Assembly: GCA_018175035.1 (NCBI GenBank)
Contig: GCA_018175035.1_4099.2
Strand: one strand, 5' to 3'
Source: a phage
Length of the DNA stretch: 33,238 bases
The notes below the pieces were generated by a model. The model saw only the letters and a program-made list of their open reading frames with translations. It did not search any database and was not told where the DNA came from. Position numbers and translations under genes: made by a program. Of the stretch, positions 19,180 through 32,444 are shown piece by piece; position 1 is the first letter of the stretch, and each line of letters begins with the position of its first letter.

Positions 19180-19875
19180 ATGGTTGAACAATTCATGTTT
19201 GGTGGTTATGCTAATGGCGAAGTACGTAACATTTCTATTCCTTACGTAGTTGAGAAAGTTAATGGTTCAGAACGTACATATGATCTAGCATCTCGTATGA
19301 TGCAAGACCGTATCATTTTCCTTGATACTGATTTCAATGATCAAATGGCACATATCATCAAACAACAATTGGTATGGTTAGACTCACAAGGTGATTCCCC
19401 TATTACATTCTACATTAGTTCACCGGGTGGTTCAGTACACGCAGGTTTGGGTATTGCAGATGTTGCTAAGTCTTGTATTTCCCCAATTCGCACTGTAGTT
19501 ATGGGTTATGCAGCATCAATGGGTTGCTATACACAATCTGTTATTGGGACTAAAGGTTTCCGTTTAGGTGGTAAACGCTCATACTTCATGTGTCACCAAG
19601 TAAGTTCTGGTACACAAGGTCTAATTACTGACCAGAAGATTTCACTTAAACATTCTGATGCCCTAAACACTCTATTGACTAAAGAAATTGCAGAAGCAGT
19701 TGGTGTATCACACGAACAACTACTGAAAGATGCGGATCGTGACCTGTGGTTGAACGCTGAAGAAGCACTCGAATACGGTGAACATGGTTTCATTGATGGT
19801 ATCATCCTCGGACCACGCAACGAAGAAGGTAAGTATCTCGTCAAACGTCGCGGTGGCGTTGAAGAGTGGGTCTAA
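19180..19875 (+). CDS. clpP: ClpP-family serine protease proteolytic subunit
   Basis: Strong ClpP pattern: YSRMMQDRIIFL, SSPGGSV.AG, catalytic Ser in GYAASMG, His in MCHQ, Asp in DRDLW, C-terminal EALEYG. Confidence 0.85.
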   Translation: MVEQFMFGGYANGEVRNISIPYVVEKVNGSERTYDLASRMMQDRIIFLDTDFNDQMAHIIKQQLVWLDSQGDSPITFYISSPGGSVHAGLGIADVAKSCISPIRTVVMGYAASMGCYTQSVIGTKGFRLGGKRSYFMCHQVSSGTQGLITDQKISLKHSDALNTLLTKEIAEAVGVSHEQLLKDADRDLWLNAEEALEYGEHGFIDGIILGPRNEEGKYLVKRRGGVEEWV

Positions 19876-21338: not shown

Positions 21339-21834
21339 TACTAATATCTGGTTAGATAACATAATCAAGACATTAGAATTAATTAAACTTACATTACAAA
21401 AAACTACAGATATTGAAATTAATATTAAAAAAGAAATATTAAACTATTATCATAGAAACAACTATAGCACGTTTATCTCTAAATTAATTTATGGATTATA
21501 TGATATTGAAGATATTTGCATCGGTTACAGTACTGGTATTTGCTTCACTGTTAATGGTTTAAAAAATGATTTAAATTTCAGACTTTCCGATGAAGAGCAA
21601 GATTTTCGTAGATTTTGTGATAATATTATGGATACAGATAAAATTACATTTGTTATTGAATTAAATCAAACGTGGTCTACATATGCAGATAAACCATTTG
21701 AAATTAATGAAACAGATGTGTTAAACTATATTCGAGTTATGAAAATTCATGATTTGTGTAAAAACGCATTGTTAAGTATTGGAGCTTATAATGAAACATA
21801 CGACTTGGTTGAAGATAGCAGAAGTAGTTGCTGA
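21310..21834 (+). CDS. Hypothetical protein (very AT-rich gene)
   Basis: ATG ORF overlapping both neighbours (29 nt upstream, 44 nt downstream). Confidence 0.45.
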   Translation: MKYTHLSIDDTNIWLDNIIKTLELIKLTLQKTTDIEINIKKEILNYYHRNNYSTFISKLIYGLYDIEDICIGYSTGICFTVNGLKNDLNFRLSDEEQDFRRFCDNIMDTDKITFVIELNQTWSTYADKPFEINETDVLNYIRVMKIHDLCKNALLSIGAYNETYDLVEDSRSSC

Positions 21835-22270
21835 GGAAAGTAAATGTATTTCACAAAAAGTTGGTTGTGTTATTGTTAAAAATAACCGAGTATTGAGTAC
21901 TGGATACAATGGTACTCCATCAAAACAACCAAATTGCTGTGATGTGAATCAACACTTAGTCAATGATGGGCGTTTTCAAGACTGGGTTAGTGATGAAGCA
22001 AAGCATGAACATCATGAGTGGAGTAATATTCATGAAATCCATGCTGAAATGAACGCTTTACTCTATAGTTCTCCTACTGAACGTCAAGGTGCTACTCTTT
22101 ACACAACACTACAACCATGTTATACTTGTTCTAAGTTGATCGCAGGTAGTGGGATTTCACGTGTAATTTATCACAAAAGTTATCCACGAACACCACCTGA
22201 AGCGATTAAAGTACTGGAAGATGCTGGGATTATTGTTAACTGCATTTATGACAAGGGTATGAATCAATGA
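21791..22270 (+). CDS. cd: Deoxycytidylate (dCMP) deaminase
   Basis: Zinc-deaminase motifs HAEMNAL and PCYTCSKLI; N-terminus ...ESKC.S.KVGCVIVKNNRVLSTGYNG resembles T4 Cd as I recall it; ATG after GGAG SD (track start 21779 is TTG). Confidence 0.85.
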   Translation: MKHTTWLKIAEVVAEESKCISQKVGCVIVKNNRVLSTGYNGTPSKQPNCCDVNQHLVNDGRFQDWVSDEAKHEHHEWSNIHEIHAEMNALLYSSPTERQGATLYTTLQPCYTCSKLIAGSGISRVIYHKSYPRTPPEAIKVLEDAGIIVNCIYDKGMNQ

Positions 22271-22521
22271 CATTTATGATTGTTGGATTTCTATCAATAT
22301 TAGTATTATTTTTTATAACAGTAATGTTTGTTATTGATGATAATGACATTTCTCAACGAAACTATGAAGTGCGTTTTTCTGCACAAAATAATAAGTACTA
22401 TATTGTAAACTGTATACACCGTAGTGAGAAAAGGGTAACAAGTAGATTTGGATTTACCATTTATTATAAAGACCGAGTAGAAGCTGACATGATTTGTCAG
22501 AAGCTTAATACTGTAGAATAA
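22267..22521 (+). CDS. Small membrane-anchored protein
   Basis: ATGA overlap with cd; hydrophobic N-terminus. Confidence 0.5.
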   Translation: MTFMIVGFLSILVLFFITVMFVIDDNDISQRNYEVRFSAQNNKYYIVNCIHRSEKRVTSRFGFTIYYKDRVEADMICQKLNTVE

Positions 22522-22550
22522 AAAAAAGGAGCCACAAGGCTCCTTTTTTG
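22520..22550. terminator. Bidirectional Rho-independent terminator between convergent genes
   Basis: A-run, stem AGGAGCC / GGCTCCT, loop ACAA, T-run; symmetric so functional on either strand. Confidence 0.65.
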
Positions 22551-22928
22551 TTAACCAGGGATGTTACAATAATACAAATCCCAAGGGTGATATTTCATTT
22601 CTCCAGTACTCAATTTAATTTTATGAAACTGGAATGATTCGGCAAATGCACTATCATCAATCTTAATACAAAAAGTATTTTTTGCTAAAGTTGGTGCAAT
22701 CTCTAGTGCAGTTTTAGATGCATCTAATCTGATTTTATCTTTATCAAAACTTGTTATAGTTACAAAACGATAAACATTAAAATCAGTGTCGATAAGATCG
22801 TAAACACAACTAGAACGTTGATTAAAGATGTTCAAGTTATATTTCAATTCACCGTTTATATTAGCGGCGGTTACACAAAAGCCGCCGATATTGAATGGTA
22901 ATTTACCTTGTGCTGCTATAGCTTTCAT
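22551..22928 (-). CDS. Hypothetical protein (125 aa); the only convincing minus-strand gene
   Basis: ATG preceded on the minus strand by AGAGGA at 8 nt; stop abuts the bidirectional terminator; competing + strand ORFs here lack SD. Confidence 0.55.
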   Translation of the reverse strand: MKAIAAQGKLPFNIGGFCVTAANINGELKYNLNIFNQRSSCVYDLIDTDFNVYRFVTITSFDKDKIRLDASKTALEIAPTLAKNTFCIKIDDSAFAESFQFHKIKLSTGEMKYHPWDLYYCNIPG

Positions 22929-23080
22929 ATTTTATTTCCTCTTATTAATAAACAACTACTTTTACAGATTGTTGTACCTTTTATATTTACACCGTCAACT
23001 AAATATCCACCTAAAGTGAATGGAAATTGGTCTTGTCCTGCGATTGGTTTTCCCATTAAGGGCACTCCTTATAAAAAAGC

Positions 23081-23110
23081 TTTACATTTGGTATGTGTTT
23101 GTGATAGAAT
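23081..23110 (+). promoter_or_regulatory. Candidate sigma70 promoter TTTACA-N18-TGaTAGAAT
   Basis: -35 TTTACA 23081-23086; extended -10 TGaTAGAAT 23102-23110. Confidence 0.4.
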
Positions 23111-23175
23111 CTTCACAGTGATTGTACTAAGGGGATTATCAGATGAGGGAAATTTGAGTTAAGTACAGAAAAAGT

Positions 23176-23204
23176 TTGACTTAAGTGTTTAAGTACTATA
23201 TTAT
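23176..23204 (+). promoter_or_regulatory. Candidate sigma70 promoter TTGACT-N17-TATTAT
   Basis: -35 TTGACT 23176-23181; -10 TATTAT 23199-23204; about 35 nt upstream of the 23238 gene. Confidence 0.45.
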
Positions 23205-23237
23205 TTATATCTTCCTAACCAAAATTAAGGATTTGTT

Positions 23238-23846
23238 ATGAAAAGACTATGGCTTGAGGTAGTACAAGCAGTAATGCTTCTGATGTTGATAAATTTTCCA
23301 GCCAGTGCTGGTATTGAAAGTAAAAATGTGATAAAGTACAATCCTGAAACACGTAATGTATATTTCATCTCAGATATTACGGATGGGTCACTAAAGCGTA
23401 TGATGGAGTTGTATGATAAAGAACACTATGATACCATTACCATCACATCGCCAGGTGGTGATTTTGATGCTGGGATTAAAATGGCAAACTTCGTTAGAGA
23501 CAATGGTATAAATTTAATTGTTTCTAGGTATTGCAACTCAGCATGTACTGTGGTATTCTTCAGTGTAGCTTTTGAAAAGCGATACATGATAAATCGCTCA
23601 GTACTGGGTCTTCATAACATTTCGATTAAAAGTAATGTTACTGATGGTGATAATTCATTTGTGTCTGTAAGACAGCTATCAACTTTTACCGAAGAAATGG
23701 CAACAAAGGTAGGTTTCCTTTTTTCACTATATGCAGCAAATGGAATCCCACCAGAAGTTCTATTTAGAGTTAGTCGTTCTCGTGGTGAAGATGTTGTAAT
23801 ATTAACAAAACCAGAACTGGTTTTTTACGGTTCAGTCAAACAATAA
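23238..23846 (+). CDS. Secreted (signal-peptide) ClpP/S49-like serine peptidase-fold protein
   Basis: N-terminal hydrophobic signal (LLMLINFPASAG); ClpP-like SPGGDFDAG, then CNSAC and GLHN in ClpP Ser/His positions; AAGGA SD. Confidence 0.55.
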   Translation: MKRLWLEVVQAVMLLMLINFPASAGIESKNVIKYNPETRNVYFISDITDGSLKRMMELYDKEHYDTITITSPGGDFDAGIKMANFVRDNGINLIVSRYCNSACTVVFFSVAFEKRYMINRSVLGLHNISIKSNVTDGDNSFVSVRQLSTFTEEMATKVGFLFSLYAANGIPPEVLFRVSRSRGEDVVILTKPELVFYGSVKQ

Positions 23847-23916
23847 AAATAATTAAAATAACAGGATGATTATGATGTACTTCCTTTGTTATTAATTATA
23901 TTGAGATTATATAACT

Positions 23917-24177
23917 ATGACAAACATCCAAAACTTGACATCTATTATTTTTTATGCTACTGTAGTAATGTATGCTACAGTTATTTTTCTAACAGTTTTC
24001 ATTTACAAAGATTATCGTAATGGCTTTATTGATCCAACTACAATGAAGTTCAATTCAAAATTCGAAGCAATAATTTATTATGTACTATCAACTTCATACT
24101 TGGTGTGCCTAATGTTGTTAGGAGCACTAATTTATATCTTATACACAACATTATTTGCAATTGGAGCTATTTTATGA
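23917..24177 (+). CDS. Small integral membrane protein (two TM helices)
   Basis: ATG ORF; hydrophobic segments. Confidence 0.5.
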   Translation: MTNIQNLTSIIFYATVVMYATVIFLTVFIYKDYRNGFIDPTTMKFNSKFEAIIYYVLSTSYLVCLMLLGALIYILYTTLFAIGAIL

Positions 24178-24767
24178 CCTGTATTATTGCACACACTGAC
24201 GGAGTAAGTTCTTTTATTGCTGGGGATAAGTTAGGAAGCAATGGATTTACAAAAACTGTTCAAACTGAGCCAAAGGTATTCGAGAAAGAATTTATCAAGT
24301 TACATGATGATGGACTAACTAGAACTAAAGAAGTAATGGCATTGGGTTATACTACATCATTTCGTATGGGTCAGTTGTTAAATTATAACCTTAATTTACC
24401 TGAACAAGATGCTAGTCAAACATTTTCACAATATTTGGTTCTTAAAGTTATTCCAATCATTCGTCAAATGTTTAAAGAAGAATGGGGTGCACGAGATGCA
24501 TCACAAGATGTAGGTGGTGGACAATTTATCATTCTCCACAATCATACAATCTATGAAGTTCAAGAAGACTTTTCAGTACTACAACCTAAAACAAGAATTA
24601 CCGCAGTAGGTAGTGGGACATATCATGCAATTGCAGCAATGCAAGCATATATTGAAGTTGAGAACGAATCTAAAAAACCACTACACGAACGTATCAAATC
24701 AATTTTTAAAATTGTTAGTGATAATGTAACAAGCGTAAGCGAAGAGTTTGATGTTTTAAAATATTAA
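24174..24767 (+). CDS. HslV/proteasome beta-subunit-like N-terminal-nucleophile hydrolase
   Basis: ATG 24174 (ATGA overlap, GGAG SD); N-terminus MTCIIAHTDG...IAGD parallels HslV MTTIVSV...IAGD with Thr at position 2; C-terminal AVGSGTYHAIAA parallels HslV AIGSGG.YA.AAA. Confidence 0.7.
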   Translation: MTCIIAHTDGVSSFIAGDKLGSNGFTKTVQTEPKVFEKEFIKLHDDGLTRTKEVMALGYTTSFRMGQLLNYNLNLPEQDASQTFSQYLVLKVIPIIRQMFKEEWGARDASQDVGGGQFIILHNHTIYEVQEDFSVLQPKTRITAVGSGTYHAIAAMQAYIEVENESKKPLHERIKSIFKIVSDNVTSVSEEFDVLKY

Positions 24768-31464: not shown

Positions 31465-32079
31465 ATGACAACATCTGAAAAGTACTGGTGGATTTTGGGT
31501 CATCCTAAATTCATAAACAAAGATATGGTTCCAGCTAGGATTGATATAGAACCTCATGATGTGTGTCCAATGACAAATCGAATTGAAGATTTCAAAGCAT
31601 TGAATACAAAGACTCAATTTTGGGTAGAATTTCTTTCACCAATGTATATTGAGCAAGACGACGAATGGGTACAAGCACATGATTATCAATTGGATTGTGG
31701 TGGTGATACGTATGAAGAGGCCATTGATGAATTATACAAAAATGTGCTAAGAACATATGGTGATTACACCCAACAAGAAGCGGACGATGAATTTAATAAG
31801 ATCCATGTAGCTATTTCGACATCATCAATTTATAATCCCACTAAAACAGTTTGGGAGGAACGACACAGTTGGTGTTCATGTGTAATCGATGAAGAAACCA
31901 AAGAAAAAATCATCGATGACATAAAAAATTTAAAAAATACAATCCAAGCCTTGCGTGCATTCATAAAGTCTTGTACAATAGAAGAACAGCAAGAGGCAAA
32001 GATACATTTGGAGAGTGAAGAATGTAAACTTTGGGTTCTAGAAAAATCACTTGAAAAGGGTATAGACTTAGACTTATGA
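31465..32079 (+). CDS. Hypothetical protein (acidic, 204 aa)
   Basis: ATG with GGGGA SD. Confidence 0.6.
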   Translation: MTTSEKYWWILGHPKFINKDMVPARIDIEPHDVCPMTNRIEDFKALNTKTQFWVEFLSPMYIEQDDEWVQAHDYQLDCGGDTYEEAIDELYKNVLRTYGDYTQQEADDEFNKIHVAISTSSIYNPTKTVWEERHSWCSCVIDEETKEKIIDDIKNLKNTIQALRAFIKSCTIEEQQEAKIHLESEECKLWVLEKSLEKGIDLDL

Positions 32080-32444
32080 ATAGTAAATTGGAGAAACTTG
32101 TTGAAGAATTACGCCGGATGCCACCTATTGAGCAAGTAGGGAACTACAAGCGGTATCGTGTGATTGCTCGTGCACTGGATAAAAAAGGTCGAGTACTGGC
32201 AACTCGCACAAATTCTTATACACAGACTCACCCAGTACAGAAGGGTTTCGCCATTCGTGCTGGGCGACCGCAAGGTGAGTTTCTTCATGCTGAAATTTCA
32301 TGTTTACTGGCTGCTCGTGCTGATGTTCATACTTTACTGATTGCACGGATAAGTAAAGATGGAATTCCTGTTCCGGCTAAACCATGTGAAATTTGCTCAT
32401 TAGCAATAAAAGAATATGGGGTGAAAGAGATTATCCACACATGA
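32076..32444 (+). CDS. Small zinc-dependent deaminase-fold protein (CDA / dCMP-deaminase / TadA-like), second deaminase in the window
   Basis: HAEISCL and PCEICSLAI about 30 residues apart; N-terminal YRVIARALDKKGRVLATRTN like the deaminase substrate-loop region; ATGA overlap. Confidence 0.65.
   Translation: MNSKLEKLVEELRRMPPIEQVGNYKRYRVIARALDKKGRVLATRTNSYTQTHPVQKGFAIRAGRPQGEFLHAEISCLLAARADVHTLLIARISKDGIPVPAKPCEICSLAIKEYGVKEIIHT

What the first reader, a model, noticed from the sequence alone, without database searches (positions are those of the whole stretch)
22520..22942. Single convergent minus-strand gene bracketed by a bidirectional terminator
In a window where every other gene is on the + strand, one 125-aa ORF on the minus strand has a strong SD (AGAGGA-8 nt-ATG) and ends at a symmetric A-run/hairpin/T-run terminator shared with the upstream + strand genes. 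About 300 bp of non-coding DNA carrying two + strand promoters separates it from the next gene. This insertion-like arrangement is typical of a moron or accessory gene.
Basis: seen in the sequence. Interest (0 to 1): 0.4.

Follow-up and report, generated by a model that had tools for sequence, protein, structure and literature searches.

The report
Lone late gene for virion protein
The single backward-facing gene in this stretch of a giant E. coli phage is not a foreign insert: it is a conserved gene, very probably switched on late, for a small and abundant virus-particle protein, and near-identical copies are already annotated and detected in related phages.

Summary
The window comes from an Asteriusvirus jumbo phage, about 94% identical to 121Q. 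The 125-aa minus-strand ORF (22551-22928), its AGAGGA Shine-Dalgarno and the symmetric terminator (22522-22549) are all real. It is the orthologue (99% aa) of 121Q gp471 and phAPEC6 gp347. That protein was found in virions by mass spectrometry, with 75% coverage, the highest of 62 proteins, and it ranked 4th of 49 by abundance in phage JP4. dN/dS is 0.03.

The "300 bp non-coding" spacer is not empty. It holds a 43-codon stub ORF, which is the 5' end of a deleted upstream paralogue. It also holds the window's only TATAAATA (T4-type late promoter motif), oriented toward the gene.

The same slot, between dCMP deaminase and a ClpP-like protease, carries an opposite-strand homologue in three genera. 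Content ranges from no gene to three tandem genes. The shared part is an N-terminal domain of about 120 aa, followed by 0-7 Ig-like domains. The window's protein is that N-terminal domain alone, and it has no solved structural counterpart.

Best reading: a late transcription unit for a virion surface (decoration-type) protein, not a moron. Whether it sits on the head or the tail is unresolved. The gene is already known and of low to moderate interest.

The parts
22522..22549 (.). Bidirectional intrinsic terminator: A8, GGAGCC, ACAA loop, GGCTCC, T6. It is shared by the upstream + strand operon (stop codon at 22519-22521) and the minus-strand unit (stop codon at 22551-22553).
   Evidence: Terminator scan. 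RNA folds on both strands: -17.6 and -18.4 kcal/mol, z -3.96 and -4.25. The stem is conserved in 121Q and PBECO4, and also in WPEC5 where the gene is gone.
22551..22928 (-). 125-aa gene, orthologue of 121Q gp471, phAPEC6 gp347 and JP4_CDS0554. It is a virion protein consisting only of the family's N-terminal domain of about 120 aa.
   Evidence: Matches phrog_33171 at E 3e-88. 99% aa identity to 121Q and 97.6% to the PBECO4 group. dN/dS 0.03. Virion mass spectrometry of orthologues. AF2 model with pLDDT 81.
22937..22942 (-). Shine-Dalgarno AGAGGA, 8 nt upstream of the ATG of the 125-aa gene.
   Evidence: Read from the sequence.
22925..23056 (-). 43-codon stub ORF (equivalent to 121Q gp472). Its first 27 codons (23056..22977) are the 5' end of a deleted upstream paralogue. 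Its TGA stop overlaps the ATG of the 125-aa gene (ATGA).
   Evidence: 48% aa identity to residues 2-26 of the 125-aa protein (E 1e-5). Matches the N-terminus of phrog_10468. 77.5% nt identity over 80 nt, and 20 of the first 27 aa identical, to the start of the 637-aa first gene of the tandem array in metagenomic locus L013. The segment is found only in 121Q among 50,697 phage records and is replaced by unrelated DNA in PBECO4.
23065..23070 (-). Shine-Dalgarno AAGGAG, 8 nt upstream of the stub ORF's ATG.
   Evidence: Read from the sequence.
23202..23209 (-). TATAAATA, the T4-type late-promoter motif, oriented toward the minus-strand genes. Its first base lies 153 nt upstream of the stub ATG.
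   Evidence: It is the only copy in 33,238 bp, against 7.4 +/- 2.7 expected, and every shuffle had at least 1. It is conserved in 121Q, PBECO4 and phAPEC6 and sits 44 nt upstream of the UE-S1 homologue. In 121Q's structural region all 6 copies lie 38-64 nt upstream of same-strand starts, including MCP, scaffold and baseplate hub genes. A gp55-like late sigma factor is annotated in 121Q (gp591). An ATAAATA late motif is described for CBB and GAP32 (PMC5259590).
23176..23204 (+). Neighbouring element, not part of the unit: sigma-70-like promoter TTGACT-17-TATTAT for the ClpP-like protease gene (23238-23846). Its -10 hexamer overlaps the late promoter on the other strand.
   Evidence: Promoter scan, 10/12 matches. 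Conserved in PBECO4 and WPEC5.

Best explanation
The locus is a small late transcription unit embedded, in reverse orientation, in a block of co-directional genes whose annotated functions are mostly metabolic or unknown, presumably early or middle genes, of an Asteriusvirus jumbo phage.

How it most likely works:
1. Transcription starts at a T4-type late promoter (TATAAATA, 23209..23202). This is inferred from motif behaviour, not measured.
2. It runs through a ~140-nt leader and a 43-codon stub ORF.
3. It then reads the 125-aa gene, whose start overlaps the stub's stop (ATGA). That makes translational coupling possible, in addition to the gene's own AGAGGA Shine-Dalgarno.
4. It ends at the symmetric hairpin that also terminates the converging + strand operon.

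Shown for 97.6%-identical orthologues: the product is an abundant component of the virion.

Inferred: the protein is the virion-binding module of a modular surface-protein family, made of an N-terminal domain of about 120 aa plus 0-7 C-terminal Ig-like domains. Here that module occurs without any display domain, so it would act as a decoration-type protein bound to the outside of the particle. A site on the capsid, for example the unassigned density at hexamer centres of 121Q and phAPEC6, is favoured over a tail site, but only weakly.

The stub ORF is the leftover 5' end of an upstream tandem paralogue lost by deletion in the 121Q lineage.
For: Identity and expression:
- Orthologue of 121Q gp471.
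- phAPEC6 gp347 (14.1 kDa): 8 unique peptides and 75.2% coverage, the highest of 62 virion proteins; the MCP has 74.9% (PMC7247149 Table 1).
- JP4 orthologue: 4 peptides, 12 PSMs, abundance 8.9e7. This ranks 4th of 49, after the MCP at 6.6e8, a 24-kDa protein at 1.4e8 and the sheath at 1.2e8 (PMC12648861 suppl. 2).
- The CBB syntenic homologue gp112 is also in virions (PMC5259590 Table 4).
- dN/dS is 0.03.

Late unit:
- The single TATAAATA in the window is correctly oriented.
- The same motif precedes the MCP, scaffold and baseplate-hub genes in 121Q.
- Late-like motifs sit upstream of every homologue examined.
- A late sigma factor is annotated in 121Q.
- The terminator folds on both strands.

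Family architecture:
- 105 clusters contain the domain, at residues 1 to about 123 in nearly all confident matches, in proteins of 102-1859 aa.
- The C-terminal parts are Big_2 x1-7, Big_1/Invasin_D3, HYDIN/VesB-like Ig and Fn3-like domains.
- The window protein has no Pfam domain.

Conserved slot with variable content.

Stub origin.

Unassigned capsid decoration densities in 121Q and phAPEC6: PMC5646251 and PMC7247149.
Against: - There is no transcript data for any Asteriusvirus, so late timing rests on a motif.
- The motif lies 153 nt from the first start codon, whereas canonical cases in 121Q lie 38-64 nt away.
- Mass spectrometry of whole virions cannot distinguish head from tail, or surface from interior.
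- phAPEC6 also shows an unassigned decoration protein on the tail.
- My rough copy-number reasoning from JP4 intensities (a few hundred copies) is compatible with hexamer centres (270 in T=28), but also with a 1:1 sheath partner (150).
- The binding role of the N-terminal domain is inferred from architecture alone.
Confidence: 0.7

Rival explanations
1. Moron or horizontally acquired accessory cargo gene. On this view a self-contained promoter-gene-terminator cassette was inserted between phage genes and serves host or phage fitness rather than virion structure.
For: It is an autonomous, oppositely oriented unit with its own terminator. The slot content is variable among close relatives and is empty in the WPEC5 group.
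Against: A homologue sits in the same slot in three genera. GC content is ordinary. The product is an abundant virion protein. The promoter motif is the phage's own late-gene signal. The variation is explained by tandem duplication and deletion within one family, not by import of unrelated genes.
Confidence: 0.05
2. Tail-associated protein: a decoration or collar-like protein on the contractile tail, or the 'major tail protein' named in RefSeq for the RaK2, GAP32 and CBB homologues.
For: RefSeq labels. The phAPEC6 tail reconstruction shows an unassigned decoration protein at two levels and unassigned fibre bases (PMC7247149). The JP4 abundance is close to that of the sheath.
Against: The 'major tail protein' name traces only to the Big_2 domain. 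All PDB hits of RaK2 gp039, including T5 tube protein pb6, lie at residues 76 onward, nearly all from 123, and none covers the N-terminal domain. The window protein lacks that domain. The N-terminal domain shows no tail-tube or sheath fold. Sheath and tube genes are assigned elsewhere.
Confidence: 0.2
3. Internal or incidentally packaged protein (an inner-body or core component), not a surface protein.
For: 121Q and phAPEC6 have an inner body whose proteins are unidentified (PMC7247149). Virion mass spectrometry cannot tell inside from outside.
Against: Family members carry 1-7 Ig-like adhesin-type domains. In phages such domains are characteristically on exposed structural proteins (Fraser et al. 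2006, as cited in PMC5259590). No N-terminal extension or propeptide is evident: the domain starts at residue 1 in nearly all clusters.
Confidence: 0.05

Closest known systems
121Q gp471 / phAPEC6 gp347 / PBECO4 gp098 (phrog_33171, 'virion structural protein')
   Same: Orthologues with 97.6-99% aa identity, the same slot, the same strand and the same terminator. phAPEC6 gp347 and the JP4 orthologue were detected in virions.
   Different: Nothing material. The window and 121Q additionally carry the 43-codon stub, which the PBECO4 group lacks. The 121Q note 'Ig domain' is not borne out for this 125-aa protein.
T5 pb10 and T4 Hoc (Ig-bearing, dispensable capsid decoration proteins at hexamer centres)
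   Same: As I recall it (not tested here), pb10 is an N-terminal capsid-binding domain plus a C-terminal Ig-like domain. That is the same layout as the RaK2, CBB, GAP32 and UE-S1 members of this family. All are late virion proteins, and the slot is empty in some relatives.
   Different: No sequence or fold similarity between the N-terminal domain and any solved decoration protein. The window's protein has no Ig domain at all. Its location on the particle is unknown.
Ig-like domains on phage structural proteins (Fraser et al. 2006; Big_2 on lambda gpV and T5 pb6)
   Same: Longer family members carry Big_2, Big_1 and related Ig-like domains.
   Different: In this family the Ig domains are appended to a dedicated module of about 120 aa, not to a tube or capsid protein. 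The window member has lost or never had them.
Phage morons (lambda/HK97-type)
   Same: A promoter-gene-terminator unit placed between genes, with variable presence.
   Different: The phage is described as lytic, the slot is conserved across genera, the promoter is a late one, the product is a virion protein and the composition is native.
T4 late genes embedded in early regions (for example soc), from my own knowledge and not tested here
   Same: A small late gene for a capsid decoration protein, transcribed against the surrounding early genes from a TATAAATA promoter.
   Different: No homology; the analogy concerns genome organisation only.

Membership tests
phrog_33171 / 121Q gp471 orthologue group | Full-length sequence match | tested here: met
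   E 3.3e-88 over residues 1-125 of a 125-position profile. 99.2% aa identity to 121Q gp471.
phrog_33171 / 121Q gp471 orthologue group | Same genomic slot and orientation | tested here: met
   Lies between the gp470-like ORF and dCMP deaminase on one side and the ClpP-like protease on the other, on the opposite strand.
N-terminal-domain + Ig-like display family of RaK2-like jumbo phages (phrog_10468, RaK2 gp496, CBB gp112) | Conserved domain of about 120 aa at the extreme N-terminus | tested here: met
   phrog_10468 at E 8.7e-13. 32-42% identity to the more distant family members. A profile search finds 105 clusters, with the domain at residues 1 to about 123 in nearly all confident matches. 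BFVD fold matches are only to family members.
N-terminal-domain + Ig-like display family of RaK2-like jumbo phages | C-terminal Ig-like (Big_2, Big_1 or related) domains | tested here: not met
Capsid decoration protein (Hoc / pb10-like) | Present in purified virions | tested here: met
   From published proteomes of 97.6%-identical orthologues, not from this phage itself.
Capsid decoration protein (Hoc / pb10-like) | Binds the outer capsid surface at defined lattice sites | not testable with these tools
   Unassigned hexamer-centre and inter-capsomer densities exist in 121Q and phAPEC6, but nothing links them to this protein.
Capsid decoration protein (Hoc / pb10-like) | Sequence or fold similarity to a solved decoration protein | tested here: not met
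Capsid decoration protein (Hoc / pb10-like) | Dispensable | tested here: inconclusive
   The slot is empty in the WPEC5 group, but a 385-aa paralogue is kept elsewhere in those genomes.
T4-type late transcription unit | TATAAATA at -10 upstream, on the coding strand | tested here: met
   23209..23202 (-), the only copy in the window. It lies farther from the start codon (153 nt) than the canonical 38-64 nt.
T4-type late transcription unit | Phage encodes a gp55-like late sigma factor | tested here: met
   121Q gp591 is annotated 'sigma factor for late transcription', and CBB_244 is gp55-like. The factor lies outside this window.
T4-type late transcription unit | Transcript appears late in infection | not testable with these tools
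   No transcript-timing data were found in the two Asteriusvirus papers checked.
Moron | Own promoter and terminator, inserted between genes | tested here: met
Moron | Sporadic presence of an unrelated gene among otherwise collinear relatives, with atypical composition | tested here: not met
   The same family occupies the slot in three genera. GC is 31.7% against 33.3% for the window, the 31st percentile.
Moron | Non-structural function | tested here: not met
   Abundant virion protein.
Major tail (tube) protein | Tail-tube fold or homology in the core domain | tested here: not met
   PDB hits of RaK2 gp039 to tube proteins fall in the C-terminal part containing Big_2 (residues 92-205 and 144-205). 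There are no tube-fold hits for the N-terminal domain.
Bidirectional intrinsic terminator | GC-rich hairpin with a U-tract on both strands between convergent genes | tested here: met
   Activity itself was not measured.

The most novel reading that the evidence does not exclude
The N-terminal module of about 120 aa is a previously unrecognised virion-anchoring fold with no solved counterpart. It defines a late-expressed, rapidly remodelled display-cassette slot in RaK2-like jumbo phages, holding 0-3 tandem genes that carry 0-7 Ig-like domains. The Ig-less 125-aa version in 121Q-like phages would then be the abundant protein behind the still-unassigned hexamer-centre (fibre-anchoring) density on their T=28 capsids. 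It might compete with, or template, its 384-aa paralogue (121Q gp155, phAPEC6 gp077).
Probability: 0.3. Interest if true: 0.5.

Novelty: already known. Interest (0 to 1): 0.25.

Why it matters
As a gene it is already annotated and proteomically confirmed in sister phages, so the finding itself is ordinary. The modest value lies in four points:
1. It corrects misleading labels. 'Ig domain' on 121Q gp471 and 'major tail protein' on the RaK2, GAP32 and CBB homologues both derive only from a Big_2 domain, which this protein lacks.
2. It nominates a small, very abundant protein as a candidate for the decoration densities left unassigned in the 121Q and phAPEC6 cryo-EM maps.
3. It shows that TATAAATA behaves as a clean late-gene marker in Asteriusviruses. 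The motif is strongly avoided in this window, and in the 121Q structural region examined every copy precedes a gene. This is useful for annotating these genomes, which are about 80% of unknown function.
4. It documents a hot spot where one surface-protein family expands, shrinks and leaves stubs.

Tried and rejected
- Pfam on the 125-aa and 43-aa products: no families.
- PDB sequence search: only E of about 0.4 to the mitoribosomal protein mL38, which is noise.
- Fold searches of a confident AF2 model (pLDDT 81):
  - Foldseek against PDB: best E 0.34.
  - BFVD: only family members, plus weak unnamed hits.
  - So no function could be read from the fold.
- Rfam on 22300-23400: only sub-threshold hits driven by the terminator hairpin.
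- The ~147-nt leader is not unusually structured (z -0.18).
- A search for the origin of the stub segment by blastn in 50,697 phage records found only 121Q. The source type was instead found in a metagenomic contig.
- I looked for the 3' end of the deleted long gene just upstream of the 125-aa ATG. The local alignment scored 27 against shuffles of 24 +/- 4, which is not significant, so no claim is made.
- No transcript-timing data in the two Asteriusvirus papers checked, and no cryo-EM assignment of this protein was found.
- phiKp24 capsid paper: a different capsid type, not informative.
- Spurious-ORF reading: rejected by dN/dS and mass spectrometry.
- GC content as a signal of foreign origin: none.

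Full report
**What the window is.**
Megablast of 21500-24500 finds 22 phage records (21 distinct phages) that cover at least 80% of it. All are Asteriusvirus jumbo myoviruses of about 310-385 kb. 121Q matches at 94.3% over the full length. The PBECO4/phAPEC6/JP4 group matches at about 95.5%, but with one segment missing. In the 121Q annotation of the equivalent 33.6 kb, 75 of 77 CDS are on the + strand. The two exceptions are gp471 and gp472, which lie at the finding's position.

**Checking the observation.**
- The ORF is at 22551..22928 (-), 125 aa, with an ATG start.
- AGAGGA at 22942..22937 lies 8 nt from the ATG.
- The hairpin A8-GGAGCC-ACAA-GGCTCC-T6 occupies 22522-22549. It sits one base after the stop codons of both converging genes.
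- As RNA it folds on both strands, at -17.6 and -18.4 kcal/mol (z about -4 against shuffles).
- The stem is kept in PBECO4 and even in WPEC5, where the minus-strand gene is gone.

The claim of about 300 bp of non-coding spacer is not. The spacer contains a second minus-strand ORF (23056..22925, 43 aa). That ORF has an AAGGAG Shine-Dalgarno 8 nt upstream, and its TGA stop overlaps the ATG of the 125-aa gene (ATGA). It is annotated as 121Q gp472.

The two + strand promoter-like sites exist (23081-23110 and 23176-23204). However, consensus matches in this AT-rich region are not above shuffled expectation. Only the second site is conserved in relatives.

**The ORF is a real, expressed gene.**
- Against PBECO4, phAPEC6 and JP4 there are 20-22 synonymous and 3 non-synonymous differences, giving dN/dS of about 0.03.
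- The phAPEC6 orthologue is gp347 (97.6% identical). It was detected in purified virions with 8 unique peptides and 75.2% coverage. That is the highest coverage of all 62 virion proteins; the major capsid protein (MCP) has 74.9% (PMC7247149 Table 1).
- In the JP4 virion LC-MS/MS table the identical 125-aa protein has 4 peptides, 12 PSMs and abundance 8.9e7. This is fourth of 49, after the MCP (6.6e8), a 24-kDa protein (1.4e8) and the tail sheath (1.2e8) (PMC12648861 suppl. 2).
- The syntenic CBB homologue gp112 is also a virion protein (PMC5259590 Table 4).

**Not an insertion: a conserved slot with variable content.**
The position between the dCMP deaminase gene (plus one small ORF) and a ClpP-like protease or cytidyltransferase gene holds an opposite-strand homologue in several lineages:

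| Phage or locus | Content of the slot |
|---|---|
| RaK2 (gp496) | 212 aa |
| GAP32 | 303 aa |
| CBB | 218 aa |
| UE-S1 | 633 aa |
| PBECO4 group | 125 aa |
| WPEC5/Ecwhy_1 group | empty; terminator and promoter region retained |
| Metagenomic contig L014 | two tandem family genes, 129 + 343 aa |
| Metagenomic contig L013 | three tandem genes, 637 + 162 + 162 aa; the second is 67-68% identical to the window's protein |

The GC content of the ORF is 31.7%, against 33.3% for the window (31st percentile). These facts rule out a moron in the usual sense. They also confirm that the locus is an evolutionary hot spot.

**The stub.**
- Residues 3-27 of the 43-aa ORF are 48% identical to residues 2-26 of the 125-aa protein (E 1e-5 within the window).
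- They match the consensus N-terminus of the wider family (MGKPIAG...) better than the resident gene does.
- At DNA level, 23056..22977 aligns to the first 80 nt of the 637-aa first gene of L013 at 77.5% (E 3e-13). 20 of the first 27 residues are identical.
- 22898..22556 aligns to the second L013 gene at about 70%.

The window, like 121Q, is therefore a deletion derivative of a tandem array. It keeps only the first about 27 codons of the upstream paralogue. This segment is found in no other phage record, and in the PBECO4 group it is replaced by about 125 bp of unrelated DNA. Whether the stub is translated, or matters for coupling, is unknown.

**Promoter.**
- TATAAATA, the T4 late-promoter consensus, occurs once in the 33,238-bp window, against 7.4 +/- 2.7 expected. 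All 100 shuffles had at least one copy.
- That copy is at 23209..23202 on the minus strand, pointing at the two minus-strand ORFs.
- As a positive control I examined 121Q's 30.5-kb structural region. It has six copies, and all six are intergenic and 38-64 nt upstream of a same-strand start codon. The genes are virion protein gp590, endonuclease VII, baseplate hub, scaffold, MCP and gp614.
- 121Q encodes an annotated late sigma factor, gp591.
- The CBB paper reports an ATAAATA motif before 35 structural genes and a gp55-like sigma factor.
- Late-like motifs precede every homologue examined:
  - UE-S1: TATAAATA 44 nt upstream.
  - GAP32 and CBB: ATAAATA...TATAAAT, 25-45 nt upstream.
  - The WPEC5 paralogue: ATAAATA, about 35 nt upstream.
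  - PBECO4 and phAPEC6: TATAAATA 195 nt upstream.
  - RaK2 has only a near-match.
- L013 has TATAAATA about 187 nt upstream.

Late transcription is thus well supported by inference, but it has not been measured. The long leader in the 121Q, PBECO4 and L013 types is unexplained. It has no Rfam match and no unusual structure.

The late motif overlaps the -10 hexamer of the conserved + strand sigma-70-like promoter of the protease gene. This gives a back-to-back arrangement of a + strand sigma-70-like (presumably early) promoter and the late promoter.

**What the protein is.**
- PHROGs places it in phrog_33171. It also matches the first 126 positions of phrog_10468, a 384-aa 'virion structural protein'.
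- That longer paralogue is 121Q gp155, equivalent to phAPEC6 gp077. It too is a virion protein and also a lone opposite-strand gene.
- A profile of Ig-less members finds 105 clusters among 1.84 billion representatives. In nearly all confident matches the domain sits at residues 1 to about 123, in proteins of 102-1859 aa.
- The C-terminal parts are Big_2 (1-7 copies), Big_1/Invasin_D3, HYDIN/VesB-like Ig or Fn3-like domains.
- The window's protein is the N-terminal module alone. It has no Pfam domain.
- In BFVD it matches only relatives.

Two existing labels are not supported. All PDB hits of RaK2 gp039 lie at residues 76 onward, nearly all from 123, and none covers the N-terminal domain.

**Mechanistic reading.**
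The family pairs a constant N-terminal module with interchangeable Ig-like display domains, and its members are found in virions. The simplest inference is that the module anchors the protein to the particle and the Ig domains project outward. I recall this layout from T5 pb10; that comparison was not tested here.

The 125-aa protein would then be an anchor-only decoration protein. Its high abundance and strong purifying selection imply that the module has a role of its own, such as occupying or stabilising a lattice site.

The cryo-EM studies of 121Q and phAPEC6 leave several densities unassigned (PMC5646251, PMC7247149):
- a protein at each hexamer centre that anchors fibres;
- an elongated protein at 1:1 with the MCP;
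- a tail decoration protein.

My rough per-peptide comparison of the JP4 intensities suggests a few hundred copies per virion. This is compatible with 270 hexamer centres in T=28, but also with 150 sheath subunits. Head versus tail therefore remains open. I favour the capsid, but only weakly.

**Verdict.**
The gene is already annotated and proteomically confirmed in near-identical phages. New here are the late-promoter assignment, the stub's origin, the family architecture and the correction of the labels. Interest is low to moderate.

Noticed in passing
window 1-33238; 121Q structural region L015: TATAAATA is strongly avoided in this window: 1 copy against 7.4 +/- 2.7 expected. In 121Q's structural region all 6 copies are intergenic and lie 38-64 nt upstream of same-strand start codons. 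The motif could serve as a simple genome-wide marker of late genes in Asteriusviruses.
   Followed up: partly
window 23176-23209: The minus-strand late motif (23209..23202) overlaps the -10 hexamer (TATTAT, 23199-23204) of the conserved + strand sigma-70-like promoter of the ClpP-like protease gene. The two promoters, one presumably early and one late, sit back to back and may compete.
   Followed up: no
window 23057-23195 (-): The leader between the late motif and the first start codon is unusually long, about 140 nt here, compared with 195 nt in PBECO4 and about 187 nt in L013. Canonical late genes have 38-64 nt. There is no Rfam hit and no unusual fold, so its purpose is unknown.
   Followed up: partly
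L013 2077-4974; L014 4001-5495: Metagenomic relatives carry 3 and 2 tandem opposite-strand genes in the same slot. The third L013 gene (162 aa, TTG start) showed no obvious resemblance to the family by eye and was not characterised. P0002 has a C-terminal extension that looks like a partial internal repeat of its own residues 95-115.
   Followed up: partly
L011 2501-3655 (phAPEC6 gp077); L005 3495-4652 (WPEC5): The 384/385-aa paralogue (121Q gp155) is also a lone gene on the opposite strand to all its neighbours. It is preceded by an AATAAATA or ATAAATA motif and is present in virions. Its C-terminal part of about 260 aa has no Pfam match.
   Followed up: partly
window 19180-19875, 23238-23846, 24105-24767: Three protease-like genes cluster here: a ClpP-like 'head maturation protease', a second gene with only weak ClpP (Pfam E 0.007) and NfeD (E 0.14) resemblance, and an HslV-like peptidase. 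Orthologues of the first and third (JP4_199 and JP4_209) appear in the JP4 virion mass-spectrometry table.
   Followed up: no
window 21779-22270 and about 32076-32444: There are two deaminase genes in one window: a dCMP deaminase, and a second gene that 121Q annotates as dCMP deaminase (gp490).
   Followed up: no
window 23081-23110 (+): A good extended -10 sigma-70-like match (TTTACA-18-TG-TAGAAT) lies inside the 121Q-lineage-specific stub segment and reads toward the protease gene. It is absent from PBECO4-type phages, and its significance is unknown.
   Followed up: no
L012 508-621 (JP4_CDS0555): JP4 annotates a 37-aa ORF on the opposite strand that overlaps the start of the 125-aa gene. It is probably a spurious call.
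   Followed up: no
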